Counted from the first letter of the stretch, positions 1 to 32,768 are shown. The stretch: DNA of 64,000 nucleotides from Patescibacteria group bacterium (GCA_038061225.1 JBBTZT010000005.1:19646-83645), one strand, 5' to 3'. The notes: generated by a model not told the origin, from the letters alone. A program made the numbers and translations.

Positions 1-501
1 ATCATATTTTTCACCTAATAGGATGTTTGTAACGAAACATCTAATAAACATTTCATGAGATACAACTACAATACTTTTATTTAAATAGTTAGTTGTTAAA
101 TTATTTTTGAAATTAAATGCACGTTCTGAGACCTCTCTTATCGATTCTTCATTATTTTCGAATTTCCAATCAAGATCACTGTAATTTTTGATATTCTCAT
201 CGTTATAACGTTTACTTATATCACTTTGTCTATCAACTCCATAAATTTCTGAATATTGCTCACGTTCCTGAATTCCGTCAATTTGCTCAAGTTTTTTATC
301 AAGTAATTCTGAAATTATTTTTGCTGTTTCTATTGCTCTTTTCCACTTACTGGATAGTATTAAATCCACTTTTTTGAACCGAGATAGAGTAGATAAGTTT
401 TCAGATTGTTTTACCCCTGTACCACTAAGTGGAGTATCAGGAGTCTGCCATTTTTCTCTTGAACCTGAACCTTCTGCATGTCTAACTAGAAATATAAACA
501 T
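1..501 (-). CDS. Histidine phosphatase superfamily protein (phosphoglycerate-mutase-like), 3' end beyond window
   Basis: Manual minus-strand translation from the ATG at 501..499: MFIFLVRHAEGSGSREKWQTPDTPLSGTGVKQSENLSTLSRFKKVDLILSSKWKRAIETAKII...VVVSHEMFIRC. It has the RHxE catalytic His motif, the SxxxRAxxTA motif and a VSHxxxIR motif. There is an in-frame TAG upstream of the ATG. The ORF runs off the window start, so it is absent from the ORF track. Confidence 0.6.
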   Translation of the reverse strand, partial: MFIFLVRHAEGSGSREKWQTPDTPLSGTGVKQSENLSTLSRFKKVDLILSSKWKRAIETAKIISELLDKKLEQIDGIQEREQYSEIYGVDRQSDISKRYNDENIKNYSDLDWKFENNEESIREVSERAFNFKNNLTTNYLNKSIVVVSHEMFIRCFVTNILLGEKYD

Positions 502-525
502 ATTTAGAAGTATATCATCCTATTT

Positions 526-1302
526 TCATTTTGTACCAACTGCCACCACACCAACGACAGATTCATCAAGACCATCAATATCAAGCAGTTTGTTAATTCC
601 TTTGTCGTTAAATCCACCAATTGAGCAAACCCCAAGACCCAAACCAGTTCCCATTAAATATAGATTTTGAGCCATGTGTCCATATTCTGTCAAAATATGT
701 CTATAGCCTCTGTCCTTATATTTAACTTCAGTTCTGTCAAATACAGCTGTAATAATAAATAGCAATGCTGACTTTTTAATCCAAAGTTGATCAAATTGAC
801 TTATAACTTCTTCTTTTGAAACATCATCCAAGACACATTCTAGAGAATGAGTTTTAACGTGATAATGATATATACCCTTTTTTATTTTCTCTACATTGAA
901 AACAATTGGATATACTTCTAATGGATATCTCGCTCCGCCTGATGGATAATTTCTTTTTTCACCACTTTTACTGGAGTCTCTTATTCCAGCAGAATAATAA
1001 ATAAGATCAGAAAATTTATTAAGATTTATTCTATTACTAGCAAAGTTTCTGAATGATTCTCTTTCCAAAATTGTTTTTTCAAGATCTATTTTAATTGCTG
1101 TTGGGGTAGGTAGAATCAATTGATCAAACCTAGGATATGCTTTGTGATACACTTTTTTCCATTCTGATGGCCATGACTCTCGAGGAGTTTTCTTAAACGC
1201 TTTAAAATCATCAATATTTGTAGATATATGAAATTTTCGTGAATTAGATAGTCCTTCAACGCATTCAATTAAACTTTCAATTTTGTCATTTATTTTTGTC
1301 AT
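526..1302 (-). CDS. SagB-type dehydrogenase (nitroreductase superfamily, TOMM/LAP azoline oxidase-like)
   Basis: 258 aa. It has the YPSGGARYPLEVY hallmark of SagB/McbC-type dehydrogenases. It lies 3 nt downstream of the YcaO gene on the same strand. Confidence 0.75.
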   Translation of the reverse strand: MTKINDKIESLIECVEGLSNSRKFHISTNIDDFKAFKKTPRESWPSEWKKVYHKAYPRFDQLILPTPTAIKIDLEKTILERESFRNFASNRINLNKFSDLIYYSAGIRDSSKSGEKRNYPSGGARYPLEVYPIVFNVEKIKKGIYHYHVKTHSLECVLDDVSKEEVISQFDQLWIKKSALLFIITAVFDRTEVKYKDRGYRHILTEYGHMAQNLYLMGTGLGLGVCSIGGFNDKGINKLLDIDGLDESVVGVVAVGTK

Positions 1303-1305
1303 ATT

Positions 1306-2649
1306 TTATAAAAATGGATGAGGAAATTTATTTAAATTCAACTCTAATTTTCTTTTAAATCCAAGTTTTTCAGGAATACTATATAGCCTATCTCCACCTA
1401 ATAGTGGATATTTTTCATTAAGGTAAATCGGTTGCATTTTTGGAATAATTACTTTTACAATATGATAATTAAGTTTTTTAAATTTTTCTATAGTTATATC
1501 TTTATAATATAAGTCATATTTTTTATTTTTAAATATTTCAATTAACGTTTTTAGTTTTTCCCCTGATTTCATTAGATTACTAGAATAATTAATATCTTTT
1601 ATATTTGCATTTTCTATCCAAAAATTGATATTTTTAATTGCTTCTGTGCCATACCACAAGAAACCTCTTAGTTTGATATCTGAACTTTTTTGTAAATCCT
1701 GGATATTAACTTTCATTGGCTCATCTTCAAAACTTGATCTAAGCCATGATCGTGTATGAAGTGCTTCTTCAATAGATCCACTAATTGCTTTGATTATATC
1801 AAAATCGCATTTTAGTCCGACAGATACAGCCTTACCAATTCCAGAGCGATTTATTATAATTGATGCAATAGTTGGAATTTTAATGTCTGTTGTAATATCT
1901 AACACTACAACTTCAAATTTATACCTATCTAAAATCAATTGTAACTTTCTAATTTCAGGATTATCTATATTTCTAAGGTTAATTTTTGAAGGTGTAATTT
2001 TATTAAGATAAAAAATCATAAACGAATCACGTTCAACAACTTCACAAATTCCTCGAACTATAGCAGCTGAGATGTTTGCACCACCTGCCACTCCCGTACT
2101 GATAGCTGAATAAATAGATGGCTCATTCTTTAGATATGGATATGAAAGATATATAAATTGTGAAGGTATCAGATATTGTTTATCAACTAATAGAGAAATA
2201 CAATCGGTCCATCTAAAAACAGAATTATTGTCAATTCTGAATTTTTTAAATTCATCCTTCTTAAGTTGGTTTTTCGAAAAAGCTGATATTGATCTAGGAT
2301 CAATAAAATTACAATTCATATGATTAATTGATTTCGTAGTAAAAGTTGATTCTTTTTTAAAAAAGAAGTTACAATATCTTTCTGTAGATTCACACAAGGA
2401 TTTTAACAATGCCTCCTTTTGTGAATGAAGTGAAGCTCCCGAAGACTTTGAGTGAAAATGTCTACCATCATTTTTTAAAAATAAATCATTTAGATCAGCA
2501 GAATAATACCAAAATTTAGGTTCATCATAATATTGACGAACTCTTTTAATTTTTTTAATTAATCCGTAATCCTTATCGACAAGACAAGACAAAGACAATA
2601 AAGTCCTATCTATATCTTGCTCACTTTCGCTATATAGATTCTGTATCAC
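1306..2649 (-). CDS. YcaO-domain protein (ATP-dependent cyclodehydratase-type)
   Basis: 447 aa. It carries the YcaO ATP-binding motifs SGASLHSQKEALLKSLCESTERY and GVAGGANISAAIVRGICEVVERD. It starts 8 nt downstream of the precursor ORF. Confidence 0.85.
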   Translation of the reverse strand: MIQNLYSESEQDIDRTLLSLSCLVDKDYGLIKKIKRVRQYYDEPKFWYYSADLNDLFLKNDGRHFHSKSSGASLHSQKEALLKSLCESTERYCNFFFKKESTFTTKSINHMNCNFIDPRSISAFSKNQLKKDEFKKFRIDNNSVFRWTDCISLLVDKQYLIPSQFIYLSYPYLKNEPSIYSAISTGVAGGANISAAIVRGICEVVERDSFMIFYLNKITPSKINLRNIDNPEIRKLQLILDRYKFEVVVLDITTDIKIPTIASIIINRSGIGKAVSVGLKCDFDIIKAISGSIEEALHTRSWLRSSFEDEPMKVNIQDLQKSSDIKLRGFLWYGTEAIKNINFWIENANIKDINYSSNLMKSGEKLKTLIEIFKNKKYDLYYKDITIEKFKKLNYHIVKVIIPKMQPIYLNEKYPLLGGDRLYSIPEKLGFKRKLELNLNKFPHPFL

Positions 2650-2657
2650 TTTTTGTG

Positions 2658-2843
2658 TTATTCACCTGAACCACCTGAACCTTCACAACCGCAGCTTGCT
2701 GCACAATCAGACTCACAACCACAACTTTGTGCACAATCCGCTGTACATGCTGAATCACAGTCAGAAGTTTCCATTTTGATGCTTTTTGTTTCCATCATTG
2801 GCTTAGCGTCTCTCAAATCTCTATTTTTGTTTATTAATTTCAA
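2658..2843 (-). CDS. RiPP precursor peptide, Cys/Ser-rich core (LAP/TOMM-like)
   Basis: The 74-codon ORF in the track (2658..2882) begins at a TTG. The better start is the TTG at 2843..2841, which is preceded by a strong SD (AAGGAGGTGA, 8-nt spacer). The resulting 61-aa product is MKLINKNRDLRDAKPMMETKSIKMETSDCDSACTADCAQSCGCESDCAASCGCEGSGGSGE. It has nine Cys at regular xxxC spacing with adjacent Ser/Thr. It sits immediately upstream of YcaO. Confidence 0.6.
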   Translation of the reverse strand: MKLINKNRDLRDAKPMMETKSIKMETSDCDSACTADCAQSCGCESDCAASCGCEGSGGSGE

Positions 2844-2887
2844 TTTAATCACCTCCTTAGTAAATTCGTAAGAATAATACAAGCAGA

Positions 2888-2915
2888 ACTATATCAGAAA
2901 TGATCAAATAGTCAA
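2888..2915 (-). promoter_or_regulatory. Candidate sigma70-type promoter for the precursor-YcaO-SagB operon
   Basis: On the minus strand there is TTGACT (plus 2915..2910), a 16-nt spacer and TATAGT (plus 2893..2888). This lies ~45 nt upstream of the SD and TTG start. Confidence 0.4.
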
Positions 2916-2987
2916 TAACTTATGGGGCTTATGGGTATATTTAAAATTGGCTTGTCAAGTTGTAAACAAGTTTGGCACTTTAACTCG

Positions 2988-3047
2988 TCAGAACTGACTC
3001 GTTAAATTGTAAATTGGCAGGATTATTGCAATGACTAAAAATCCAAC
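2988..3047. repeat. Direct repeat copy A: duplicate of the pilC 3' terminus (candidate attL/attR-type island boundary)
   Basis: It matches 7833..7892 over ~60 nt (30+14+8+5 identical, 3 mismatches). All 3 mismatches are synonymous in the pilC frame. The copy still encodes ...VGFLVIAIILPIYNLTSQF* preceded by a stop. Confidence 0.7.
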
Positions 3048-3066
3048 ACACTATCATGCAATTTGG

Positions 3067-4404
3067 CTATTTTATTTGTAAAGCTTCAATAAAATTCTTA
3101 TCAAATTTATCAAATCTCTCCGTTAGTATAGGATCTAGATAGAAAAATGGCTGGTGTGAGTAATTTGAATTAAAAATTTTTCCATAAACAGGTAGATAAC
3201 CCTTTGTCGTTAACATAATTCTAAATCCCACATTTATATCAAAGTTCTTACCGACATACCCGCTTCCGTGGAATGATGATAGTTTTGTAGATCTATTGAT
3301 AGGATATAAAGTTAAACGATCTATAATATTATGCATGTCGCATCTAATAGAATCTGGATATATATATTCTACTGGTTTAGTTAATCTTCCAGACACAATT
3401 TCAGAAATATAATTTATAGTAAAACTCCATGTATCATGGACGATCTTTTGCCTAAGTATATTAATTTTTTCACTAGAATTTTTAAAGTTGAATATATCTT
3501 CAAAAACATGGAGAGTTAAATTATCTTTATCTTTTGAAGATTTAATTTCATGTACATAAATGCAATAAATTAAAGACATATAGAGGGCAATAAATTTATT
3601 TGCTAATTCTTTATCTTTAGCTGAACTCAAAATCTTCGAAATGTTTAAGAGAGGATCTTTAAGATTGATATACTTACCAAACATCTTTGTATAATTTGCC
3701 CTTGTTTTTAAAAAGATTTTTCTTTTTTCAAATTTAATTTCTTCTGGAAGAAATTTGTCTAAAGTCTTAACATAATCTACAAGCTCGACATATCCTTCTA
3801 AATTTAAATGTTTGGAAAATAATAACAAAGTCGTTTGATATTTATTAATTATTTCATCAGGAAAATTTAAAATCTGTTTAAAACGATACCCATCCATTAA
3901 AACAATAAATTTAGCTCCAACTGGATAAATATATTTTACAGCCAAACATATTTCCTTTAATCTTGCCAAGGAAGCCAAATCTGCTAGGTCTGGTAACAAA
4001 TCTGCACTCTTTAATAAATTTGGTATCTTGCAAGGAAATAAAGAGATAGTGAGTCGAATTGGTAAATTTTCTTTTATTCTATCAGAAACTTTTTGGTACA
4101 AAATATCAAAACCACTACTTTCTCTAGTACCACCCCTATATCTTCTTGCCATAAGTACTTCTACAACCATCCGATTGAGATCAGTTTTCTTACCATTCCT
4201 AAATTTCTTTTTAACTCTCTCTGCTATTTTAGACGCGTTTTTCTCTATCAATTGATTTATTTTTTTTGAAAGTAGCAGAAATAATTCATCATTCATTGTA
4301 AAATTAGTGTTTTTTCTTGATACAAATTTACTTGTTTTAAGATTAATAGATCTTAATGACGAACAGCTGATTAAAATTTCATTTTTGCTAAAAATATTTT
4401 TCAT
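3067..4404 (-). CDS. Hypothetical protein, 445 aa (island cargo)
   Basis: The ORF is intact and overlaps the upstream gene's stop by 4 nt (ATGA). Motifs FPCKIPN ... YPVGAKFIVLMDGYRF weakly recall the Dit1/PvcA isonitrile-synthase family. This is from memory only and unverified. Confidence 0.35.
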   Translation of the reverse strand: MKNIFSKNEILISCSSLRSINLKTSKFVSRKNTNFTMNDELFLLLSKKINQLIEKNASKIAERVKKKFRNGKKTDLNRMVVEVLMARRYRGGTRESSGFDILYQKVSDRIKENLPIRLTISLFPCKIPNLLKSADLLPDLADLASLARLKEICLAVKYIYPVGAKFIVLMDGYRFKQILNFPDEIINKYQTTLLLFSKHLNLEGYVELVDYVKTLDKFLPEEIKFEKRKIFLKTRANYTKMFGKYINLKDPLLNISKILSSAKDKELANKFIALYMSLIYCIYVHEIKSSKDKDNLTLHVFEDIFNFKNSSEKINILRQKIVHDTWSFTINYISEIVSGRLTKPVEYIYPDSIRCDMHNIIDRLTLYPINRSTKLSSFHGSGYVGKNFDINVGFRIMLTTKGYLPVYGKIFNSNYSHQPFFYLDPILTERFDKFDKNFIEALQIK

Positions 4405-5630
4405 ATATTTTGTAAATCAATAATGTTTCCTGGCAACTCTTTATCTACAATTTTTTGAATTGTTTGCCAATAATCTTTTATTTCCGATAATTCCTTTTCT
4501 GTAGCTGGTGTTTTGTCACGTCCGAATACAATAGGTACGTCTTTATTACATAAAGTTTTGGATGAACAAGCGGTGGTGATGACTCTAGGGATAATATCCA
4601 ACCTAAATTCAGGAGATTCTTTTGAAAAGGAAAAGTTAAATGCTCCAGAGAAACCTTTTGATATCCAAATCTGGTTGGCTTTAGTTATTATTCCCTTTTC
4701 TCTTCCTGGAGCAGCTGCCACTAAATTATTTGCAAGATATTTAAGTAATACGACAGAATCTCTTGATATAAAGTTTTGTTTATTCAAATAGGTACTTAAT
4801 CTTTTAACACGATCTTTTCTTGCTCTTGGAATATATCTTTGAGTAGTAAAATCTAATGATTTATCGGTGAAGACTTCCTGAATTTTGTTATACTCGCATC
4901 TCATATTGGTATATAAATTTACTAATCCTGGGAATAAACTTTTAAAATTCTTGGTGTCTGAAAAATATATAGATGTAAAACCAAAGTTTTCTTCCAACCT
5001 ACTGAAACCTTGATTTGGAAATAAATTCTTTTTTTCCTTCAGAGATATTATAAAATCATGGAAGATTTTTGAAAATGGCTCGATAAGAGATAATCTATCA
5101 AACCAATTTAGTTCACTCCATGATATTGACGTTAGATTTTTATTCAACACAGAATCTTCAACTAAATAAATATGGGAGTGTAATCTTTTTAAAGTATGGT
5201 TTCCCAAAAGCGAAACATCTTCAGAATTGAAACCTAGTGTTATTTGGACGTTTTTATTCCCAAAATCTAAAAGTTTGTTCACCATAACTTGATTGACAAT
5301 AAGTAATTTCTCACCCTCAACTTCAGTAAGATCAGTGATCGAAGAAACATCTCTGTCTGGCTCGCCAATGAAAATGTTCACATCCCTCAAACCGAATGAA
5401 TAGCTTTTTGGTGTAATTAAGTAATCTAAGTGTGATCCTTCAAATTTAAGAGCAGCAAGAGGAAGAATTCTTTTTCTAAACTTCAACCAATCTACTGAGT
5501 TAGCTTCTGTATTATTCAACGGTGCCATAAAATATAAAGGTCGATGAATTTTTCCAACATTCATCGATTTTGCTTTTAACATTTGGTCAAAAATAGGGTT
5601 TTCTATCATGTTATTTAATAGTAAGAACAT
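4401..5630 (-). CDS. Hypothetical protein, 409 aa (island cargo)
   Basis: The ORF is intact with no recognisable catalytic motif. It is translationally coupled to its neighbours. Confidence 0.35.
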   Translation of the reverse strand: MFLLLNNMIENPIFDQMLKAKSMNVGKIHRPLYFMAPLNNTEANSVDWLKFRKRILPLAALKFEGSHLDYLITPKSYSFGLRDVNIFIGEPDRDVSSITDLTEVEGEKLLIVNQVMVNKLLDFGNKNVQITLGFNSEDVSLLGNHTLKRLHSHIYLVEDSVLNKNLTSISWSELNWFDRLSLIEPFSKIFHDFIISLKEKKNLFPNQGFSRLEENFGFTSIYFSDTKNFKSLFPGLVNLYTNMRCEYNKIQEVFTDKSLDFTTQRYIPRARKDRVKRLSTYLNKQNFISRDSVVLLKYLANNLVAAAPGREKGIITKANQIWISKGFSGAFNFSFSKESPEFRLDIIPRVITTACSSKTLCNKDVPIVFGRDKTPATEKELSEIKDYWQTIQKIVDKELPGNIIDLQNI

Positions 5631-6663
5631 CTAACTGGTCAAGACGCGTTTTTATTCTAGAGAATAAATATTTTATATATTTATTCTCATTAAAATTGGA
5701 ATCTGCAAATTTCCTTGATTCCAACTTTTGGGGTGTGAAACTCCAAAGAAGAATACCTATCCAATTCAATGCCTGTAGAGGAACAAAGATTTTAACTCTA
5801 TCTATAATATCTTTTGGTAACATTGACTCACTTCGATATTTATTTATAAAATATCTTATATTTTCATTAGATAGACCCCAAGATCCTTCATGTGTTACAA
5901 AATTTGCAACTATTTTAGAAGGGTCGTCCCATCCAAAATACTCAAAATCTATGAAACATACATCTCCATTATCTTTAAAAATTGCATTATGAGGTCCAAA
6001 ATCTACTGGGCTTAATCTCATTAAAGAGTCATCTATTTCTTCGGAGAAACTATCACCGGACATTCTTTTTAGATTTTTTATTTGACCGTTAATTCGTTCC
6101 AAAACTTTGGTTCCCTTTGAAAAATTAACAATATCTGGACTTGTCTTAGGTGTCTTAATTAATTCTTCAAATTTTTTGATCTTTTCCAAGATTACATTTG
6201 AAAACTGTTCAGCTGATTGTGTAGAAAGAACAGCATTTGGAAAATTCTGTTTTGTTTCAATAGGTTTAATGTTTTGTATTTTAAAAATAAATGACAGGAA
6301 TCTGTCTAAATCCTTTTTAACTAATTCTCTTCCAGATTTCACTATACCTGTTTCAAAAGAGTAAACCGCATAGCCTTTATCCTCATCTTTAAAAAAAGGT
6401 ACGGGTAATCTTGTTTCTCCAAGGCTTCTTAAATATTTAAAAGCTGAAAATTCTCTATTCAATCTATTTCTATCATCTTTAAAATATCGTTTAAATAAGT
6501 AACTTTTTCCGTTCTCCGAACTTACTTTAAAAATTTTATTATTAAAACCACCATCCAAGCTTTCAAACTCATCAATCGATATTCCAAAATGTTTTGCTAT
6601 TACACCTTTTATAATAGAAGAATCTTCTTGTGTTTTGTTTTCTTTCATTTTTGTTTTACTCAT
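5611..6663 (-). CDS. Aminoglycoside-phosphotransferase/choline-kinase-like kinase (APH fold)
   Basis: 350 aa. It has the Brenner-type catalytic/Mg-binding region HNAIFKDNGDVCFIDFEYFGWDDP (HxN...IDFE) typical of the APH/ChoK/CotS family. Confidence 0.6.
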   Translation of the reverse strand: MSKTKMKENKTQEDSSIIKGVIAKHFGISIDEFESLDGGFNNKIFKVSSENGKSYLFKRYFKDDRNRLNREFSAFKYLRSLGETRLPVPFFKDEDKGYAVYSFETGIVKSGRELVKKDLDRFLSFIFKIQNIKPIETKQNFPNAVLSTQSAEQFSNVILEKIKKFEELIKTPKTSPDIVNFSKGTKVLERINGQIKNLKRMSGDSFSEEIDDSLMRLSPVDFGPHNAIFKDNGDVCFIDFEYFGWDDPSKIVANFVTHEGSWGLSNENIRYFINKYRSESMLPKDIIDRVKIFVPLQALNWIGILLWSFTPQKLESRKFADSNFNENKYIKYLFSRIKTRLDQLDVLTIK

Positions 6664-7354
6664 TTATCAAGTTAATATCGTCAATTGTGCACTGGTCTAC
6701 CTTCCATTTTGTAACATCTGATAAATTTTTTTTACCTTCAAACCCTTTAAAGATATGGGTATGTACTAATAGTTCGGATTTGTGTAAATTGTTTACCAAA
6801 TCAGCATTACCAAATCTATTTAAAACTGAAAAGGGTACGTGCGCAACATTTGCTTGTGACATTTTAGTCCAACCGATAATTTTGTTCGTAACTAACCCTT
6901 GAGACATCCAGTCCTGAAAAATAAAATTATGCATAATCAATCCTAATTTTAATTTAGGAAAAATATCCCTGATATATGGTAAAAGTGGAACTTCACTTGT
7001 AGTTAATTCTATATCTGCTTTAGAATATTGTTTTAGTTGATCCTTGAGAATCGGAAGTATCTCAGTATTCATAGCTTTAATCTCTATTTCAATCCTTCCT
7101 TTGTTGTGAATTTTGCTAAGAATTTCGTCTAGTCCTGAATAATCAGACTCTATCGAAGAGATATAATTGTGTACTATCATAATTTTTCCATTTCGAAGTT
7201 GAATATCCATTTCAATTCCATCAGCCCCATTCAAAAAGGCTGAATTGAAAGCGTCAAGAGTATTTTCAAGAAAATGAACAGTATCCCCTCGATGGGCAAT
7301 AAGAAGAGGTTTATACCTAAAATTTTCAAACTTTTCTTTTGGAGCTAGCGACAT
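6656..7354 (-). CDS. Glycerophosphodiester phosphodiesterase family protein
   Basis: It has LIAHRGDT...ENTLDAFNSAFLNGADGIEMDIQL, the GDPD/UgpQ-type active-site region. Confidence 0.65.
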   Translation of the reverse strand: MSLAPKEKFENFRYKPLLIAHRGDTVHFLENTLDAFNSAFLNGADGIEMDIQLRNGKIMIVHNYISSIESDYSGLDEILSKIHNKGRIEIEIKAMNTEILPILKDQLKQYSKADIELTTSEVPLLPYIRDIFPKLKLGLIMHNFIFQDWMSQGLVTNKIIGWTKMSQANVAHVPFSVLNRFGNADLVNNLHKSELLVHTHIFKGFEGKKNLSDVTKWKVDQCTIDDINLINE

Positions 7355-7411
7355 TTACCTATAGTATCACTATTAAGACAAAATGGCAAAAAAACAGCTT
7401 CTTTAATATTT

Positions 7412-7831
7412 TTAGATAATTAAGCTTTTGTATTTAGATAGTCTAAGTTTTACAGCACTGGTAAGCTTTAGTTTTGTTAGTTCTTTCAAATTGAAGAATT
7501 TTATTGCTTGACCTTCGTCCTGTCCTAACTTAAATAATTTTACTTCATCATTGTCGACCGTTGACAAAAATGTATATGAATATTTTCCGTCATCCTTTTT
7601 AAATTCTCCAATATATTGAAGCTCTTTGGGTACATGTGTAATTTCTTCTTTAAGTTCTCTTTTTATTGCTTGGAGTGGAGTTTCATTTTCATTCATCCGC
7701 CCTCCTGGGAGATGCCAATAATTGGGATATGGAATATCTTTTTTGTCGTCTCTATGAAATAGAAGCAACTTATTTTTATAAGTTATTAAAGCGAAAACTG
7801 AATTACTTGCAATCCAATGGTTAATATTCAT
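7412..7831 (-). CDS. NUDIX hydrolase
   Basis: It has the Nudix box GGRMNENETPLQAIKRELKEEI (GX5EX7REUXEEXGU). Confidence 0.7.
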   Translation of the reverse strand: MNINHWIASNSVFALITYKNKLLLFHRDDKKDIPYPNYWHLPGGRMNENETPLQAIKRELKEEITHVPKELQYIGEFKKDDGKYSYTFLSTVDNDEVKLFKLGQDEGQAIKFFNLKELTKLKLTSAVKLRLSKYKSLII

Positions 7832-7832
7832 A

Positions 7833-7892
7833 TCAGAACTGACTCGTTAAATTGTAAATTGGAAGGATTATTGCAATAACTAAAAAGCCAAC
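7833..7892. repeat. Direct repeat copy B = genuine 3' end of pilC
   Basis: It is identical to 2988..3047 apart from 3 synonymous mismatches. It encodes the PilC C-terminus ...VGFLVIAIILPIYNLTSQF*. Confidence 0.7.
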
Positions 7893-9038
7893 CCCTAACC
7901 CCAAAAGAACCATCACAATAGGCTCAATTGCTGCAGTTAGCGTTTTAACTTTTTGATCTGATTCAACTTCAAAAACATGACTTACTTTAGTTAAAACTTC
8001 TTCCATTTTTCCAGTTTCTTCACCAACAGCAATCATTTGAGAAAGAATAAATGGAAAAGCATCGGGGTGTTTTGCAAAAGCATAGGAGACAGGAAAACCT
8101 TTTTCAACTTGCAGAGAAACATCTTTTAAAGCATTACTTATCACAGCATTACTCATAACCTCTGATGTTATATTTAAACTTTCTAAAATTGATACTCCTG
8201 CACCAGACATTAGAGATAGTGTACTAGTTAGCTCAGTTAATAAAACTTGTTTTTGCAGTGGTCCAATAATTGGAATTTTAAATTGAAGTTCGTCTGTTTT
8301 TAATTTTCCTGCAATAGTTTTTCTATATGCTTTAAAACCATAAAATCCACCCACAAAAAAAGCAACTGTTACAGGCCAAAATTTAATAACAGCATCAGAT
8401 ATTCCCATTAATATTCTAGTTGGTAGTGGAAGTTCTGCATTAAATTCTGAATAAAGTGAGGTAAGCCTTGGAACAACAAAAATCATCATTAAAAAGGCAA
8501 CTATTACCATGCCGGTAACAATTATCATAGGATAAATCATGGCTCCTTTAACTTTTCCTTTAAATTCTTGTTGCTTTTCCATATCATCAGCAAGACGAAC
8601 TAAAACAGTATCCAAAACTCCACCAACTTCACCTGACTTGACTAAGGCAATGTAAGTTGGAGAAAAAACATTAGGATGTTTGATAAAAGCTTTTGAAACG
8701 GATTCTCCTCCTTCAATGTCAGCTAATATTTGGGAAACAACCTTACCCATTGACCCATTTGCTTGAGATTTTAAAATAATAAGTGACTCAGTAATTGGTA
8801 AACCAGCATTTACCATTGTTGCAAATTGACGGGTAAAAGTAACAACATCTGACGGGGTAATTCTATTTTTTAAATTTTTAATAAAAACAATTGGATTTTC
8901 AAAAACTTGTTTTATAGATAGTACTAAAAGTCCTTTTCCATGAACTAACCTTGCAGCATTAATTTCATCCACAGCTTCAACTTCTCCAGTTACCAATTTT
9001 CCAACTTTATTCTTTGCTTTGTAGTTGAATCGTTTCAT
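7833..9038 (-). CDS. pilC: Type IV pilus assembly platform protein PilC (GspF family)
   Basis: 401 aa with duplicated GspF domains and 3 TM segments. It follows pilT and ends with TGA. Confidence 0.85.
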   Translation of the reverse strand: MKRFNYKAKNKVGKLVTGEVEAVDEINAARLVHGKGLLVLSIKQVFENPIVFIKNLKNRITPSDVVTFTRQFATMVNAGLPITESLIILKSQANGSMGKVVSQILADIEGGESVSKAFIKHPNVFSPTYIALVKSGEVGGVLDTVLVRLADDMEKQQEFKGKVKGAMIYPMIIVTGMVIVAFLMMIFVVPRLTSLYSEFNAELPLPTRILMGISDAVIKFWPVTVAFFVGGFYGFKAYRKTIAGKLKTDELQFKIPIIGPLQKQVLLTELTSTLSLMSGAGVSILESLNITSEVMSNAVISNALKDVSLQVEKGFPVSYAFAKHPDAFPFILSQMIAVGEETGKMEEVLTKVSHVFEVESDQKVKTLTAAIEPIVMVLLGLGVGFLVIAIILPIYNLTSQF

Positions 9039-9042
9039 TTTC

Positions 9043-10104
9043 TTAGAGACTACCTTTGATTAATCTATTTAATTCATCAGGCCGTACTGTCCATTCTTGT
9101 GCAGTCTCAATAGTAATTTTATTTGTTTTAACAAGACTAGAAAGCGAATGTTCAAGCGTTGACATACCAGCCTCTAGCGAAGTTTGAATAATTGAATCAA
9201 TTTGGTGCGATTTACCTTCTCTAATTGCAGTTTTTATGGCTGTTGTTCCAAGCATTACTTCATGAGCAACGAGGCGTCCACCAGCGCTTGCTTTTATTAA
9301 TCTTTGGGAAAATACAGCCTCTAAGATCGATGATAGTTGTAATCTTATCTGGTTCTGTTGGTTTTCAGGAAAAACATCAACAATTCTATCAACTGTTTGG
9401 GAAGCAGAATTAGTATGCAGTGTCCCAAAAACTAAATGCCCTGTTTCTGCAATTGTCATTGCCGCTGAGATAGTCTCAAAGTCTCTCATTTCACCAACCA
9501 AGACAACATCAGGATCTTCGCGTAGGACTGATCTTAAAGCAACCTGCCATGAATGGGTATCAGATCTCATCTCACGCTGGGAAATGATTGATTTAATTGG
9601 TCTGAATACAAATTCTATTGGGTCTTCAATGGTCACAATATGAGATGCTCTGTTTTTATTTATTTCATTTATTATGGCAGCAAGTGTGGTTGATTTTCCA
9701 TGTCCAGTTGGCCCTGTAACAAGCACCAATCCTTGCCTTAAATCAGTAAAACTTTTGGCTATAGGAGGTAAACCTAACGAATCAATTTCTGGAATTTCCA
9801 AAGGAATCCTTCTAAATGAAGCCGCCATTGATCCTTTTTGGGTATAGGCATTCACTCTAAATCTTGCCTTTTCGCTAAATGATAATGAAAAATCAATTTC
9901 TTTATTTACGCTAAATCTTTCAAGTTGGTCTTTTGTTAATATTTGTTTTAATCCTTCATTTATAATATCGGGGGTTAAAATAGCATTGTCTGCAATTGAT
10001 TTTAAGTCGCCATCTAATCTAACCATAGGAGGAACACCCGCCACCAAATGCAAGTCGGATGCTTTTAAATCAATTGTTTGTTCCAGTAAGTTTTTTGCGT
10101 CCAT
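9043..10104 (-). CDS. pilT: Twitching motility ATPase PilT
   Basis: 353 aa. It has the Walker A motif GPTGHGKSTT and is PilT/PilU-like throughout. Confidence 0.85.
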   Translation of the reverse strand: MDAKNLLEQTIDLKASDLHLVAGVPPMVRLDGDLKSIADNAILTPDIINEGLKQILTKDQLERFSVNKEIDFSLSFSEKARFRVNAYTQKGSMAASFRRIPLEIPEIDSLGLPPIAKSFTDLRQGLVLVTGPTGHGKSTTLAAIINEINKNRASHIVTIEDPIEFVFRPIKSIISQREMRSDTHSWQVALRSVLREDPDVVLVGEMRDFETISAAMTIAETGHLVFGTLHTNSASQTVDRIVDVFPENQQNQIRLQLSSILEAVFSQRLIKASAGGRLVAHEVMLGTTAIKTAIREGKSHQIDSIIQTSLEAGMSTLEHSLSSLVKTNKITIETAQEWTVRPDELNRLIKGSL

Positions 10105-10105
10105 C

Positions 10106-11821
10106 TTATTCTTGTGCTACACGCAATATTTCTTCAATCGTTGTTTCACCAGCTAAAACTTTCAAATAACCGTCCTGTTTTAATGTTATCATACCTTCTT
10201 CCTTTGCTTTAGTTTCAATTTCTGATGCAGGAGATCTTTCAAGAATCATTTTACCAATAGAATCGCTAACTGGCAAAACTTCAAAAATACCAATTCTCCC
10301 ATAATAGCCTGAATTGCCACAAGCCTGACAACCTTTACCTCTTGAGATTTTTGATAATGCGTCTTTTGGCCACAGCGGCCCGAGGACGCTTTTCATTTCT
10401 TCAATGACTTTTGGATCAAGTTCATAATTTTCTCTACAATCTTCATGAATTTTTCTGGCAACTCTTTGAGCCATAATTGCAGTCATTGAAGAAGTCAAAA
10501 GATAAGGCTCGGCTCCCATGTCAAGCATACGAGGCAAAGCTCCGGCAGCATTATTGGTATGAAGTGTAGAAAAAACCAAATGCCCGGTTAAAGATGCTTG
10601 TATGGCAAGATCTGCAGTTTCTTGATCTCTAATTTCTCCCACCAAGATAATATTTGGATCCTGTCTTAAAAATGATTTAAGTCCTGAAGCAAAAGTAAGA
10701 CCTACTGCGGGATTAATTTGAACTTGATTAACTCCAACCATTTTATATTCAATAGGATCTTCCAAAGTAACAATATTTACCTTAGGAGTATTTATTTTAC
10801 TTATGATTGAATAAAGAGTTGTAGTTTTACCTGACCCTGTTGGGCCACAAATCATAATAATTCCATGAGGCCGGAGTATTGCATCTTGTAAATTTTTTAA
10901 AGCTTTTCCACGAAGACCAAGAGTAGGAAGATCGGGGACACCGCCTGTTTTTTTAAGAAGACGCATAACAATCTTTTCACCCCACGTTGTAGGAAGTGAA
11001 GAAACACGAAGGTCAGTGTCTTCACCTGCCGCTTTAAAATTAAATCTACCATCTTGAGGAATTCTTTTTTCATCAATTTTCATTCCCGAGAGAATCTTTA
11101 TTCTAGAAGTTAATGATTCATGCAATTCTTTTGGAATAGTTAATTTTTCAACTAAAATTCCATCTATTCTATATCTAACCCTGGTGGACCTTTCTTCTGG
11201 TTCAATATGAATGTCACTAGACCTTGATTTTACTGCAAATTCTAAAATATGAGATACTATTTCTGAAATTTTTTCTTCTTTAATAAAACCAATTTTTAAA
11301 TTATCTTTGATATTTGATTTTTTCTCAGGTGCAACATCTTTTAGGGCTTCTGTAACTTCTTGAGAAAGTGATGTCTGATATCTTGTTGTTATAACATCCC
11401 CCAATTTATCTTCTTCAACAGCTACAGGTTTAACTCTAAGGCCTGTTTTTCTTTCTACAAACTCAATAGCAGTTAAATCAAGCGGGTCTGCCATGGCAAG
11501 GGTAATTGTTTTTGCAAGTTTATCTATTGCAAGTGGAAAAATATTAAACTTAGAAGAAATGTCTTGCGCTAAAACAGACATGGCTTCAGGAGATGATGGG
11601 GAAGTAGCGAGGTCTGCATAAGGAATGTTATAAAGTGTTGCTTTGGCGCGAACGAGATCTGAATTTGAGACTAAATTTTGTTTTTTAATAATTTCTTCTT
11701 GAGTGGTGCCATACTGCACCTCAGCCATTTTAATCTGTTTGGCACGTTCTTCAGTTAAAGCACCCATCGAAATTAAAATATCTGAAAGACTATTTCCTGT
11801 AGCAATGGCAGTATTGGGCAT
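10106..11821 (-). CDS. pilB: Type IV pilus assembly ATPase PilB (GspE family)
   Basis: 571 aa. It has a GspE N-domain plus Walker A GPTGSGKTTTLYS and a tetracysteine motif. Confidence 0.85.
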   Translation of the reverse strand: MPNTAIATGNSLSDILISMGALTEERAKQIKMAEVQYGTTQEEIIKKQNLVSNSDLVRAKATLYNIPYADLATSPSSPEAMSVLAQDISSKFNIFPLAIDKLAKTITLAMADPLDLTAIEFVERKTGLRVKPVAVEEDKLGDVITTRYQTSLSQEVTEALKDVAPEKKSNIKDNLKIGFIKEEKISEIVSHILEFAVKSRSSDIHIEPEERSTRVRYRIDGILVEKLTIPKELHESLTSRIKILSGMKIDEKRIPQDGRFNFKAAGEDTDLRVSSLPTTWGEKIVMRLLKKTGGVPDLPTLGLRGKALKNLQDAILRPHGIIMICGPTGSGKTTTLYSIISKINTPKVNIVTLEDPIEYKMVGVNQVQINPAVGLTFASGLKSFLRQDPNIILVGEIRDQETADLAIQASLTGHLVFSTLHTNNAAGALPRMLDMGAEPYLLTSSMTAIMAQRVARKIHEDCRENYELDPKVIEEMKSVLGPLWPKDALSKISRGKGCQACGNSGYYGRIGIFEVLPVSDSIGKMILERSPASEIETKAKEEGMITLKQDGYLKVLAGETTIEEILRVAQE

Positions 11822-32678: not shown

Positions 32679-32762
32679 GGTGCGGTGCTGAAATTGGTAT
32701 ACAGTCAGGTCTCAAAAACCTGTGGTAGCAATACCGTGAGGGTTCGACCCCCTCCCGCACCA
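32679..32762 (+). tRNA. tRNA-Leu (anticodon CAA)
   Basis: Hand fold: acceptor GGTGCGG/CCGCACC, discriminator A. The anticodon stem is CAGGT/ACCTG with loop CTCAAAA. There is a long 15-nt variable arm, a T-arm GAGGG-TTCGACC-CCCTC, and no encoded CCA. Confidence 0.8.
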
Positions 32763-32768
32763 CAAAAA

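What the first reader, a model, noticed from the sequence alone, without database searches (positions are those of the whole stretch)
1..2882. RiPP-like operon (Cys-rich precursor, YcaO, SagB-type dehydrogenase, histidine phosphatase) in a reduced, CPR-like genome
Four co-directional, tightly packed genes (gaps 8, 3 and 24 nt) form a recognisable azol(in)e-type RiPP cassette. They are a 61-aa peptide with a 9-Cys core, a YcaO carrying both ATP-binding motifs, and a SagB-type FMN dehydrogenase with the YPSGGARYP hallmark. The cassette is extended by a histidine-phosphatase gene. Natural-product clusters are rare in Patescibacteria-like genomes. The partner set is also atypical: no E1-like/Ocin-ThiF docking protein and no TfuA is visible, and a phosphatase is present, with a kinase close by in the adjacent island. 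That would make this an unusual minimal cluster, possibly involving phospho-Ser/Thr chemistry alongside thiazole formation.
Basis: partly seen in the sequence, partly recalled or inferred. Interest (0 to 1): 0.85.

Follow-up and report, generated by a model that had tools for sequence, protein, structure and literature searches.

The report
Thiazole-peptide gene cassette in a Patescibacteria genome
This is a real gene cassette for a cysteine-rich peptide that two enzymes should convert into a thiazole-containing product; the cluster type is already known in these tiny bacteria, but this version carries a conserved kinase/phosphatase pair instead of the usual peptidase and lacks the usual helper protein.

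Summary
The cassette lies on the minus strand:
- a 61-aa precursor (2658-2843) with 8 Cys, not 9
- a SagD-type YcaO (1306-2649)
- a SagB dehydrogenase (526-1302)
- a histidine phosphatase cut by the window edge (1-501)

Both enzymes score above their curated NCBIfam cut-offs. The peptide gene is under purifying selection.

It is not a rarity. Sharrar et al. 2020 reported over 100 YcaO/nitroreductase clusters in CPR genomes. My scan found relatives in 369 species genomes, and YcaO and SagB were adjacent in 73 of 79 loci.

Three things go beyond that report:
- No E1-like/RRE partner lies in the 64-kb window. Only one CPR/DPANN relative (L043) has one within 8 kb. Non-CPR relatives have one directly upstream.
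- The phosphatase belongs to a conserved pair with a divergent APH-fold kinase. The pair sits next to YcaO-SagB in at least four gene orders. The kinase gene lies just beyond the window's left edge.
It belongs to a separate five-gene island bounded by 54-nt repeats.

Phospho-Ser chemistry is plausible but unproven. I rate this a new variant of a known kind, of moderate interest.

The parts
2888..2915 (-). Promoter-like site: TTGACT, 16-nt spacer, TG-extended TATAGT. It lies upstream of the precursor gene.
   Evidence: It is the best of the consensus matches in 1-3400 (10 of 12 positions, TG present). The 60 nt upstream of the start codon are 100% identical in relative L006, although the upstream gene there differs. 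This is a consensus match only, and function is not shown.
2658..2858 (-). Shine-Dalgarno sequence (2851-2858) plus the precursor peptide gene (2658-2843, 61 aa). The leader MKLINKNRDLRDAKPMMETKSIKMETSD is followed by the core CDSACTADCAQSCGCESDCAASCGCEGSGGSGE, which has 8 Cys, 6 Ser and 1 Thr.
   Evidence: Searches give the sequence. Purifying selection is shown by 14 synonymous against 2 non-synonymous codon changes versus L006. Homologous Cys-rich peptides with a shared leader motif lie next to YcaO-SagB in at least 35 relatives. No curated Pfam or NCBIfam precursor family matches.
1306..2649 (-). SagD-type YcaO cyclodehydratase, 447 aa, consisting of a single YcaO domain.
   Evidence: It matches PF02624 at 6.6e-55 and scores 277.9 bits on TIGR03604, above the cut-off of 219. 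The ExxER and ExxERD motifs are invariant in the family alignment and align with TruD and MusD. The AF2 model has pLDDT 93.9. Foldseek gives TM 0.80 to the LynD YcaO domain over the whole length. The C-terminus is PHPFL.
526..1302 (-). SagB-type FMN-dependent azoline dehydrogenase, 258 aa.
   Evidence: It scores 163.1 bits on TIGR03605, above the cut-off of 78.4, and matches PF00881. K194-Y195 aligns with McbC K201-Y202. It lies next to the YcaO gene in 73 of 79 related loci.
1..501 (-). Histidine phosphatase (branch 1). Only the N-terminal 167 aa are in the window, and the full protein is about 219 aa. The RHAEG catalytic motif lies at residues 7-11, and the N-terminus leaves no room for a signal peptide.
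   Evidence: It matches PF00300 at 1.2e-24. It reaches no curated equivalog cut-off in NCBIfam. The closest solved structures are CobC and phosphoserine phosphatase, at E of 1e-8 to 1e-6. The full length was recovered by stitching L001 and L091. It is conserved after SagB in L006, L009-L013 and L088-L090, and elsewhere in the cluster in L077 and L087.
2988..3041 (-). Upstream boundary marker: a second copy of the last 54 nt of pilC (the original copy is at 7833-7886). It is not part of the cassette. It marks where the five-gene island was inserted between pilC and the cassette.
   Evidence: A 28-nt exact match occurs twice in the window, where 0 are expected by chance. The extended 54-nt repeat with 2 mismatches was read. 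L006 has a single copy, with pilC directly followed by the cassette.

Best explanation
The locus is a compact operon for a linear azole-containing peptide (LAP/TOMM type).

Proposed steps
1. The 61-aa precursor is translated from a TTG start behind a strong Shine-Dalgarno sequence.
2. A conserved leader motif (RDLxDAxP here, [DE]A.P across the subfamily) directs the Cys/Ser-rich core to the YcaO.
3. The YcaO uses ATP to cyclodehydrate Cys, and possibly Ser/Thr, to azolines.
4. The SagB FMN dehydrogenase oxidises the azolines to azoles. This predicts -20 Da per ring, so up to 8 thiazoles.

Differences from canonical BCD synthetases
- No E1-like/RRE 'C' protein is encoded nearby. Leader recognition is therefore inferred to be done by the YcaO-SagB pair itself.
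- In this subfamily the usual downstream M16 leader peptidase is replaced. In its place sit a cytoplasmic histidine phosphatase and a tail-to-tail APH-fold kinase, which lies just left of the window. I infer that this pair reversibly phosphorylates Ser residues of the peptide or of its product. That would serve either as tailoring or as a producer self-protection (pro-drug) cycle.

Shown versus inferred
- Shown: gene identities, conservation, synteny and selection on the peptide.
- Inferred: the chemistry, partner independence, the substrate of the kinase/phosphatase pair, leader removal and export.
For: Enzyme identity
- Both enzymes score above their curated cut-offs.
- The catalytic motifs are intact: ExxER and ExxERD in the YcaO, and the K-Y dyad in SagB.
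- The high-confidence YcaO model matches the LynD, MusD and TruD heterocyclase domains.

Precursor
- The core is 24% Cys and lies 8 nt upstream of the YcaO gene. It is under purifying selection.
- The family shows a conserved leader and hypervariable Cys-rich cores, which is typical of RiPPs.

No partner protein
- An HMM built from 16 C proteins of distant relatives finds nothing in the window at E<=10.
- In the loci it hits only those 16, plus two weak haloarchaeal matches.
- The whole 447 aa of the YcaO is accounted for by the YcaO fold.

Kinase/phosphatase link
- The pair sits next to YcaO-SagB in at least four gene orders: L006 and L009-L013; L077; L087; and L014.
- The genes flanking these clusters differ from locus to locus.
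- Only 18 homologs of the kinase were found in 5.8 billion proteins. The four looked up all flank YcaO-SagB or the adjoining phosphatase. Eight more come from contigs whose lengths match contigs carrying YcaO hits.
- A 55-nt exact overlap places the kinase gene next to this window's phosphatase gene.
- The kinase's catalytic residues are conserved: K53, E64, HND192 and D210.

Precedents
- The APH-like kinase CaoK phosphorylates Ser/Thr of a RiPP precursor (PMC9486802).
- The AmiN kinase and AmiO phosphatase form a self-resistance pair (PMC6156654). AmiN is the top structural match of the kinase model.
Against: - There are no product or expression data.
- From established knowledge of the Balh and Mcb systems, canonical SagD-type YcaOs are poorly active without their C protein. 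I saw less than 10% of this genome, so a partner encoded elsewhere cannot be excluded.
- The C-terminus is PHPFL rather than the canonical PxPxP.
- The phosphatase and kinase belong to broad small-molecule enzyme families. Structural matches of the kinase are generic for the APH fold, with TM 0.56-0.65.
- No phospho-lyase is present, so phosphorylation would not lead to dehydration.
- The link between Ser-rich cores and the kinase/phosphatase pair is only a tendency.
- No peptidase, transporter or immunity gene is visible in the cassette.
Confidence: 0.72

Rival explanations
1. The mechanism is the canonical three-component one. An E1-like/RRE partner (C or F protein) is encoded elsewhere in the genome and works with this YcaO in trans, so the 'minimal' appearance is an artefact of looking at one locus.
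For: One relative nested in the CPR/DPANN clade (L043, Aenigmatarchaeota) has a SagC-like gene directly upstream of its YcaO. This shows the clade can work with a partner. Only 64 kb of the genome was available. The streptamidine partner AmiB escaped conventional domain detection (PMC8442711).
Against: Apart from L043, none of the CPR/DPANN loci has a C-protein match within 8 kb, whereas the 15 non-CPR relatives all have it immediately upstream. Beyond YcaO and SagB, no protein family is shared across the whole clade. Partner-free azoline-forming YcaOs exist in bottromycin biosynthesis (cited in PMC8442711).
Confidence: 0.15
2. The histidine phosphatase and the APH-fold kinase are metabolic neighbours that act on a small molecule. 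They travel with the cassette without touching the peptide.
For: Both belong to families dominated by small-molecule enzymes: CobC, PSP and PGM for the phosphatase, and APH, choline kinase and homoserine kinase for the kinase. No curated equivalog cut-off is reached by either.
Against: The kinase family is tiny and was found only beside YcaO-SagB. The pair keeps its association through at least four rearranged gene orders and across changing flanks. It takes the slot that the leader peptidase occupies in sister clades.
Confidence: 0.2
3. The YcaO performs other chemistry, such as thioamidation, amidine formation, or modification of a housekeeping protein such as ribosomal protein S12.
For: Some database entries for homologs carry the generic label 'ribosomal protein S12 methylthiotransferase accessory factor'. 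One paper read CPR YcaOs as related to MCR thioamidation (PMC12153355).
Against: The protein scores 20.5 bits on NF040716 (cut-off 700) and 82.6 on TIGR03266 (cut-off 365), but 277.9 on TIGR03604 (cut-off 219). SagB partnership is near-obligate. No TfuA is adjacent. A Cys-rich hypervariable peptide lies alongside.
Confidence: 0.05
4. The cassette is a decaying, non-functional remnant.
For: One population variant (L090) has SagB split into two ORFs. No peptidase or exporter is present.
Against: All four reading frames in the window are intact. Catalytic residues are conserved. The peptide gene is under strong purifying selection, and its promoter and Shine-Dalgarno region are identical across relatives whose YcaOs are 82% identical.
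Confidence: 0.04

Closest known systems
CPR 'LAP' clusters reported by Sharrar et al. 2020 (mBio; PMC7298704): Microgenomates_ANG_785 and 110 clusters in 93 further CPR genomes
   Same: The layout matches: a small Cys/Ser-rich precursor next to a YcaO, a nitroreductase (SagB) next to the YcaO, a CPR host, and no E1-like gene listed. Most of my related loci (25 with an M16 peptidase directly after SagB) match their YcaO-nitroreductase-peptidase picture.
   Different: The window's subfamily has no peptidase in the cassette. Instead it carries a histidine phosphatase plus a convergent APH-fold kinase. Its leader motif is [DE]A.P rather than DAKEF, and its cores are acidic and Ser/Gly/Cys-rich rather than Pro/Cys-rich.
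Microcin B17 synthetase McbBCD and streptolysin S SagBCD (canonical TOMM synthetases)
   Same: The locus has a SagD-family YcaO and a SagB/McbC-type dehydrogenase with the K-Y dyad. The core is Gly/Ser/Cys-rich, and its GSGGSG tail is reminiscent of McbA (this last point is from my own knowledge).
   Different: No McbB/SagC E1-like leader-binding subunit is present. No TldD/E-type or CaaX-type peptidase, ABC exporter or immunity gene lies in the cassette.
Cyanobactin heterocyclases LynD, TruD and MusD, with the oxidase ThcOx/CyaGox
   Same: These are the best sequence and structure matches for the YcaO domain (E of 1e-34 to 1e-38; TM 0.80) and among the best for the SagB domain.
   Different: The cyanobactin enzymes are about 780 aa, with fused RRE and E1-like domains. 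The oxidase carries N-terminal RRE-like domains. Here both proteins are reduced to the catalytic domain alone.
Bottromycin stand-alone YcaOs (partner-independent thiazoline and macroamidine formation)
   Same: They set the precedent that a YcaO can form an azoline without an E1-like or Ocin-ThiF partner (as summarised in PMC8442711).
   Different: They belong to a different YcaO clade and use a follower rather than a leader peptide. They make a single heterocycle and are not paired with SagB. Homology to them was not tested here.
RiPP and antibiotic kinases of the APH fold: CaoK/LxmK (class V lanthipeptides), and the amicoumacin AmiN kinase with the AmiO phosphatase
   Same: CaoK is an APH-fold kinase encoded in a RiPP cluster that phosphorylates Ser/Thr of the precursor (PMC9486802). 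The AmiN/AmiO pair inactivates and reactivates an antibiotic in its producer (PMC6156654). AmiN is the top Foldseek hit of the kinase model.
   Different: No HopA1/OspF-type lyase is present, so dehydration is not expected. The LxmK model scores only 16.9 bits against a cut-off of 315, and only for one homolog. AmiO is an alkaline phosphatase, not a histidine phosphatase. The structural similarity is generic for the fold (TM about 0.56).

Membership tests
TOMM/LAP azole-peptide biosynthetic cluster | YcaO cyclodehydratase of the SagD family | tested here: met
   TIGR03604 scores 277.9 bits against a cut-off of 219.25. PF02624 matches at 6.6e-55.
TOMM/LAP azole-peptide biosynthetic cluster | ATP/Mg-binding acidic motifs of YcaO (ExxER and ExxERD) | tested here: met
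   E87, E90, R91, E203, E206, R207 and D208 are invariant in 31 homologs. They align with the same motifs in TruD and MusD.
TOMM/LAP azole-peptide biosynthetic cluster | Pro-rich C-terminus (PxPxP) typical of azoline-forming YcaOs | tested here: inconclusive
   The C-terminus is ...YPHPFL. P443, P445 and F446 are invariant, but the last Pro is Leu in most CPR members, whereas C-protein-associated relatives end in PHPFP.
TOMM/LAP azole-peptide biosynthetic cluster | SagB/McbC-type FMN dehydrogenase with the catalytic Lys-Tyr dyad, adjacent to the YcaO | tested here: met
   TIGR03605 scores 163.1 bits against a cut-off of 78.4. K194-Y195 aligns with McbC K201-Y202. The gap to the YcaO gene is 3 nt.
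TOMM/LAP azole-peptide biosynthetic cluster | Adjacent precursor with a leader and a Cys/Ser/Thr-rich core | tested here: met
   The peptide is 61 aa, with 8 Cys, 6 Ser and 1 Thr in a 33-aa core. It lies 8 nt upstream of the YcaO gene. It is conserved and under purifying selection.
TOMM/LAP azole-peptide biosynthetic cluster | E1-like/RRE partner (SagC/McbB 'C' protein, a fused E1 domain, or an Ocin-ThiF-like 'F' protein) | tested here: not met
   An HMM of 16 C proteins gave no hit at E<=10 in the 64-kb window, and among CPR/DPANN loci within 8 kb it hit only L043. The YcaO is a single domain. The rest of the genome was not visible.
TOMM/LAP azole-peptide biosynthetic cluster | The product contains thiazole or oxazole rings | not testable with these tools
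   This needs mass spectrometry of the expressed peptide.
CPR LAP clusters (Sharrar et al. 2020) | YcaO, adjacent nitroreductase and a small precursor, in a CPR genome | tested here: met
   The closest homologs are named Patescibacteria or Woesebacteria. The architecture is shown.
CPR LAP clusters (Sharrar et al. 2020) | Cluster-encoded peptidase | tested here: not met
   An M16 HMM built from 25 relatives gave no hit in the window. The slot after SagB is taken by the histidine phosphatase.
Ribosomal protein S12 (RimO-partner) YcaO | Match to the NF040716 equivalog | tested here: not met
   The score is 20.5 bits against a cut-off of 700.
TfuA-dependent thioamide-forming YcaO (McrA-Gly type) | Match to TIGR03266, and an adjacent TfuA | tested here: not met
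   The score is 82.6 bits against a cut-off of 365. None of the neighbouring genes is TfuA.
Histidine phosphatase superfamily, branch 1 | PF00300 domain with the N-terminal RHG catalytic motif | tested here: met
   PF00300 matches at 1.2e-24 for the partial protein and 1.5e-27 for the full-length ortholog. RHAEG lies at residues 7-11. No specific equivalog is reached.
Class V lanthipeptide / thioamitide dehydration pair (APH-like kinase plus HopA1-like lyase) | LxmK/CaoK-type kinase together with a phospho-lyase | tested here: not met
   The kinase has the APH fold. NF038156 (LxmK) scores only 16.9 bits against a cut-off of 315, and only for the L077 homolog. No lyase-like gene appears in any of the loci.

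The most novel reading that the evidence does not exclude
The CPR/DPANN clade encodes a truly partner-free, two-enzyme azole synthetase: a YcaO domain plus SagB, with the leader read directly and no RRE. The window's subfamily adds a leader-guided APH-fold kinase and a histidine phosphatase. These reversibly phosphorylate the Ser-rich polythiazole peptide. That would define a new phospho-regulated LAP subclass, used by ultra-small episymbionts either as a pro-drug and self-immunity cycle or as a tailoring step.
Probability: 0.22. Interest if true: 0.7.

Novelty: new variant of a known kind. Interest (0 to 1): 0.42.

Why it matters
Patescibacteria have very small genomes and few biosynthetic clusters. 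The ones they keep are probably important for life on or beside a host.

Partner-free azole formation. If YcaO plus SagB alone make polyazoles, this would be the smallest azole synthetase known. That would make it a convenient engineering scaffold. It would also show that the RRE/E1 partner is dispensable in a SagD-type enzyme.

The kinase/phosphatase pair. If it acts on the peptide, it would add reversible phosphorylation to LAP chemistry, as a tailoring or self-protection step.

If neither holds, the locus is simply one more member of a cluster type catalogued in 2020.

Tried and rejected
1. Island kinase as partner: rejected. I tested whether the kinase at 5611-6663 is the cassette's partner. 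It does not match the HMM of the cluster-associated kinase family even at E<=10. The five genes from NUDIX to the DIT1-like gene are bounded by 54-nt direct repeats of the pilC 3' end. They are absent from L006 and L009. The GDPD-APH-unk402-DIT1 unit recurs elsewhere without YcaO.

2. Hidden RRE: rejected. I looked for one in the N-terminal 75 aa of the YcaO or the N-terminal 75 aa of SagB.
   - The YcaO N-terminus aligns with the start of the YcaO domain of MusD. The whole model superposes on the LynD YcaO domain.
   - The McbC alignment starts at almost the same residue in both proteins (SagB 90, McbC 93), so McbC has an N-terminal stretch of similar length.

3. A third universally conserved gene: none found. 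Accessory genes are clade-specific:
   - M16 peptidase
   - HExxH proteins
   - DUF2268 protease
   - TPR proteins, and a phosphoribosyltransferase (PRTase)/beta-propeller protein
   - the phosphatase/kinase pair

4. Curated precursor families: no significant match. The best hits were TIGR04117 at E=0.11 and TIGR03601 at E=0.018 for a relative.

5. Kinase substrate from solved structures: uninformative. Sequence search found nothing, and fold search returned generic APH-fold hits.

6. Sequence features separating partner-less from partner-associated YcaOs: no clean discriminator. PHPFL against PHPFP is only a tendency.

7. Rfam and tRNA scans of the window: nothing relevant to the cassette.


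Full report
**1. What is in the sequence**

All four genes of the finding are on the minus strand.

- Precursor peptide. A TTG start at 2843-2841 lies 8 nt after the Shine-Dalgarno sequence AAGGAGGT (2858-2851). The stop codon is at 2660-2658.
  - The sequence is MKLINKNRDLRDAKPMMETKSIKMETSDCDSACTADCAQSCGCESDCAASCGCEGSGGSGE, 61 aa.
- YcaO gene. It starts 8 nt downstream with GTG and spans 1306-2649 (447 aa).
- SagB-type gene. It follows after 3 nt and spans 526-1302 (258 aa). It contains YPSGGARYP.
- Histidine phosphatase gene. It follows after 24 nt, starts at 501 and runs off the window (167 aa visible).
- Promoter. The best sigma-70-like match in the region lies at 2915-2888, just upstream of the peptide gene. 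It reads TTGACT, 16 nt, TG-TATAGT.
- Cys enrichment. Cys makes up 0.66% of the window's long ORFs but 24% of the 33-aa core (P about 4e-11).

**2. Enzyme identities**

- YcaO.
  - It scores 277.9 bits on TIGR03604 (SagD family), above the cut-off of 219.
  - It fails the S12-type model (20.5 bits against 700) and the McrA-thioamidation model (82.6 against 365).
  - The ExxER and ExxERD motifs are invariant in 31 homologs. They align with those of TruD and MusD.
  - An AF2 model (pLDDT 93.9) superposes over its whole length on the YcaO domain of LynD (TM 0.80). It also matches MusD, TruD, the archaeal YcaOs and McbD.
  - No part of the protein could be an RRE or an E1-like domain.
- SagB. It scores 163.1 bits on TIGR03605, above the cut-off of 78.4. 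K194-Y195 aligns with the McbC K201-Y202 dyad.
- Phosphatase. It is a clear His_Phos_1 member with RHAEG at residues 7-11. It reaches no specific equivalog. Its nearest solved relatives are CobC and phosphoserine phosphatase, at weak E-values.

**3. The small ORF is a real gene**

- The peptide gene was compared with relatives whose YcaOs are 82% (L006) and 90% (L009) identical.
  - Against L006 there are 14 synonymous and 2 non-synonymous codon differences.
  - Against L009 there are 12 and 4.
  - Against L006, 16 of 19 substitutions fall at third codon positions.
  - The TTG start and Shine-Dalgarno sequence are conserved.
- No Pfam or NCBIfam precursor family matches it.

**4. How common it is, and what is already known**

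- The exact YcaO is in public databases as a Patescibacteria MAG protein from Hainich groundwater. Close homologs are labelled Woesebacteria.
- A pattern scan of one genome per species found 369 genomes with a relative. I examined 79 of these loci.
  - They span many Microgenomates and Parcubacteria lineages, DPANN archaea and some non-CPR bacteria.
  - YcaO and SagB are adjacent in 73 of the 79.
- A Cys-rich small ORF lies beside the pair in at least 35 loci.
  - Its leader motif is conserved: DAKEF-like in most loci, and [DE]A.P in the window's subfamily.
  - Its core is hypervariable, with 4-11 Cys.
- This is the cluster type described by Sharrar et al. 2020 (PMC7298704).
  - They reported a YcaO-nitroreductase-peptidase cluster with an 84-aa precursor in a Microgenomates MAG.
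  - They found 110 such clusters in 93 further CPR genomes, 89 of them with the nitroreductase next to the YcaO.

**5. The missing partner protein**

- In 16 loci a SagC-type E1-like gene sits directly upstream of the YcaO. It matches ThiF, TIGR03603 and TIGR03882.
  - Fifteen of these are non-CPR: Nitrospinota, Prevotella, Bacillota, a cyanobacterium and others.
  - The sixteenth is one Aenigmatarchaeota locus (L043).
- An HMM of these proteins finds nothing in the 64-kb window even at E<=10. Among CPR/DPANN loci it finds nothing within 8 kb of the YcaO except in L043.
- In an NJ tree, the loci with a C protein form their own clade, except for L043.
- Beyond YcaO and SagB, no protein family is shared across the CPR/DPANN clade.
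- The architecture therefore looks partner-less as a clade trait.
- This is worth testing, because canonical SagD-type enzymes depend strongly on their C protein (established knowledge of the Balh and Mcb systems).
- Partner-independent azoline formation is known for bottromycin YcaOs (PMC8442711).
- I cannot exclude a partner encoded elsewhere in the genome.

**6. The phosphatase and its true kinase partner**

- Sister clades. The gene directly after SagB is an M16 peptidase in 22 of the 25 loci that carry one. It is presumably the leader peptidase.
- The window's subfamily. That slot holds the histidine phosphatase, followed tail-to-tail by a divergent APH-fold kinase. The two genes are 1 nt apart or overlap by 4 nt (L006, L009-L013, L088-L090).
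- The same two genes occur with YcaO-SagB in other gene orders:
  - L077: YcaO, SagB, precursor, phosphatase, kinase, all on one strand.
  - L087: phosphatase and kinase on one strand, convergent with precursor, SagB and YcaO.
  - L014: the kinase upstream on the opposite strand, plus an M16 peptidase.
- The genes flanking these clusters differ from locus to locus.
- A search of 5.8 billion proteins found only 18 homologs of the kinase.
  - The four I looked up all flank YcaO-SagB or the adjoining phosphatase gene.
  - Eight others come from contigs whose lengths equal those of contigs carrying YcaO hits.
- The kinase keeps its catalytic residues:
  - the ATP-binding Lys, K53
  - the helix-C Glu, E64
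  - the HND192 catalytic loop
  - D210 of the DFE motif
- For this genome itself:
  - Contig L001 is identical to the window and extends it by 127 nt.
  - L001 then overlaps contig L091, from the same sample, by 55 exact nucleotides.
  - L091 carries the kinase gene (P0122, 84% identical to the L009 kinase).
  - The kinase gene therefore lies immediately left of window position 1.
- The AF2 model of the kinase (pLDDT 92) gives generic APH-fold matches. The top hit is the amicoumacin self-resistance kinase AmiN. It is followed by aminoglycoside, macrolide, choline and homoserine kinases, at TM 0.56-0.65.

**7. What the pair may do (inference)**

Two precedents exist.
- The APH-like kinase CaoK phosphorylates Ser/Thr of a RiPP precursor and recognises its leader (PMC9486802).
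- The AmiN kinase and AmiO phosphatase inactivate and reactivate an antibiotic in its producer (PMC6156654).

Observations here:
- Cores of this subfamily are rich in Ser, with 5-9 Ser, mostly as SC dipeptides. They have almost no Pro.
- Most M16-type cores are rich in Pro and Cys. This is a tendency, not a rule.
- No phospho-lyase is present, so dehydration to dehydroalanine is not expected.

I therefore favour reversible Ser phosphorylation of the peptide or its product, as self-protection or as a tailoring step. My confidence in this is low, about one in three. The alternative is a small-molecule function unrelated to the peptide.

**8. The 'adjacent island' is separate**

- The five genes are:
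  - NUDIX (7412-7831)
  - GDPD (6656-7354)
  - an APH/choline-kinase-like gene (5611-6663)
  - a 409-aa gene of unknown function (4401-5630)
  - a DIT1/PvcA-like gene (3067-4404)
- They are bracketed by a 54-nt direct repeat with 2 mismatches. The repeat is the 3' end of pilC, at 7833-7886 and again at 2988-3041. A 28-nt core of it is exact, where 0 chance matches are expected.
- In L006, pilC is followed directly by the cassette, with a single copy of this sequence.
- The GDPD-APH-unknown-DIT1 unit recurs on other contigs without any YcaO.
- The island kinase does not belong to the cluster-associated kinase family.

**9. Verdict**

- It is not housekeeping and not the S12 type, and the peptide is Cys-rich in all relatives.
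- The cluster class is already known to be widespread in CPR, so the finding as stated is a new member of a known kind.
- What lifts it to a new variant is a subfamily-specific, conserved phosphatase/kinase pair in place of the peptidase, together with the clade-wide lack of an E1-like partner.
- Neither feature has been characterised in the literature I could search.
- Interest is moderate. Both features are directly testable by heterologous expression and mass spectrometry.

Noticed in passing
window 2988-7886: A five-gene island is bounded by 54-nt direct repeats of the pilC 3' end (7833-7886 and 2988-3041). Its genes are NUDIX, GDPD, an APH/choline-kinase-like gene, a 409-aa unknown and a DIT1/PvcA (isonitrile-synthase-like) gene. 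No integrase is visible. The GDPD-APH-unknown-DIT1 unit recurs on other contigs (L093, L094). The 409-aa protein has only 5 homologs in 5.8 billion proteins and no Pfam match. A PvcA-like enzyme in a Patescibacteria genome may merit its own look.
   Followed up: partly
window 7833-11821; L006 5698-21347: The cassette sits inside a type IV pilus locus. PilB, PilT and PilC lie upstream. In L006 a pilC fragment, pilins and the prepilin peptidase lie downstream. More distant relatives do not keep this placement, so it is probably incidental.
   Followed up: partly
L038 7339-10479; L039 473-3531; L043 6421-10622: In DPANN archaeal loci, YcaO-SagB is accompanied on both sides by two paralogous proteins of about 180-200 aa. 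They have an HExxH motif (seen in the L038 pair) and no Pfam match. They are candidate leader peptidases. In an NJ tree, DPANN YcaOs are interleaved with CPR ones, which suggests transfer between the two groups.
   Followed up: partly
L054 7390-9051; L070 10005-11630; L071 8725-10371: In Parcubacteria-type loci, SagB is followed by a protein of about 545 aa that combines a phosphoribosyltransferase-like region with a PQQ/BamB-type beta-propeller. TPR proteins lie nearby. This is a different accessory set for the same YcaO-SagB core.
   Followed up: no
L016 10127-10813: A DUF2268 predicted Zn-protease lies convergent to SagB. It is another alternative to the M16 peptidase.
   Followed up: no
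L037 2821-8672: Two YcaO-SagB pairs lie in tandem in one Saccharibacteria-labelled MAG contig.
   Followed up: no
L063 6536-6688; L085 6197-6535: Two extreme precursors occur in relatives that do have a C protein. One has 13 consecutive Cys (Fermentithermobacillus). The other has CGRCFG-type repeats (Trichormus).
   Followed up: no
L090 1712-2487: In one metagenome variant of the phosphatase/kinase-type cluster, the SagB gene is split into 88-aa and 180-aa ORFs. This may be a pseudogene or an assembly error.
   Followed up: no
L008, L010, L011, L014-L017 and others (record titles): Many loci whose closest relatives are named Patescibacteria come from MAG records titled 'uncultured Gammaproteobacteria', 'Pseudomonadales' or 'Clostridia'. 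These labels look unreliable and were not used as taxonomic evidence.
   Followed up: no
window 1-64000: The whole 64-kb window has only one tRNA gene (tRNA-Leu CAA, 32679-32763) and no Rfam match at gathering thresholds.
   Followed up: no
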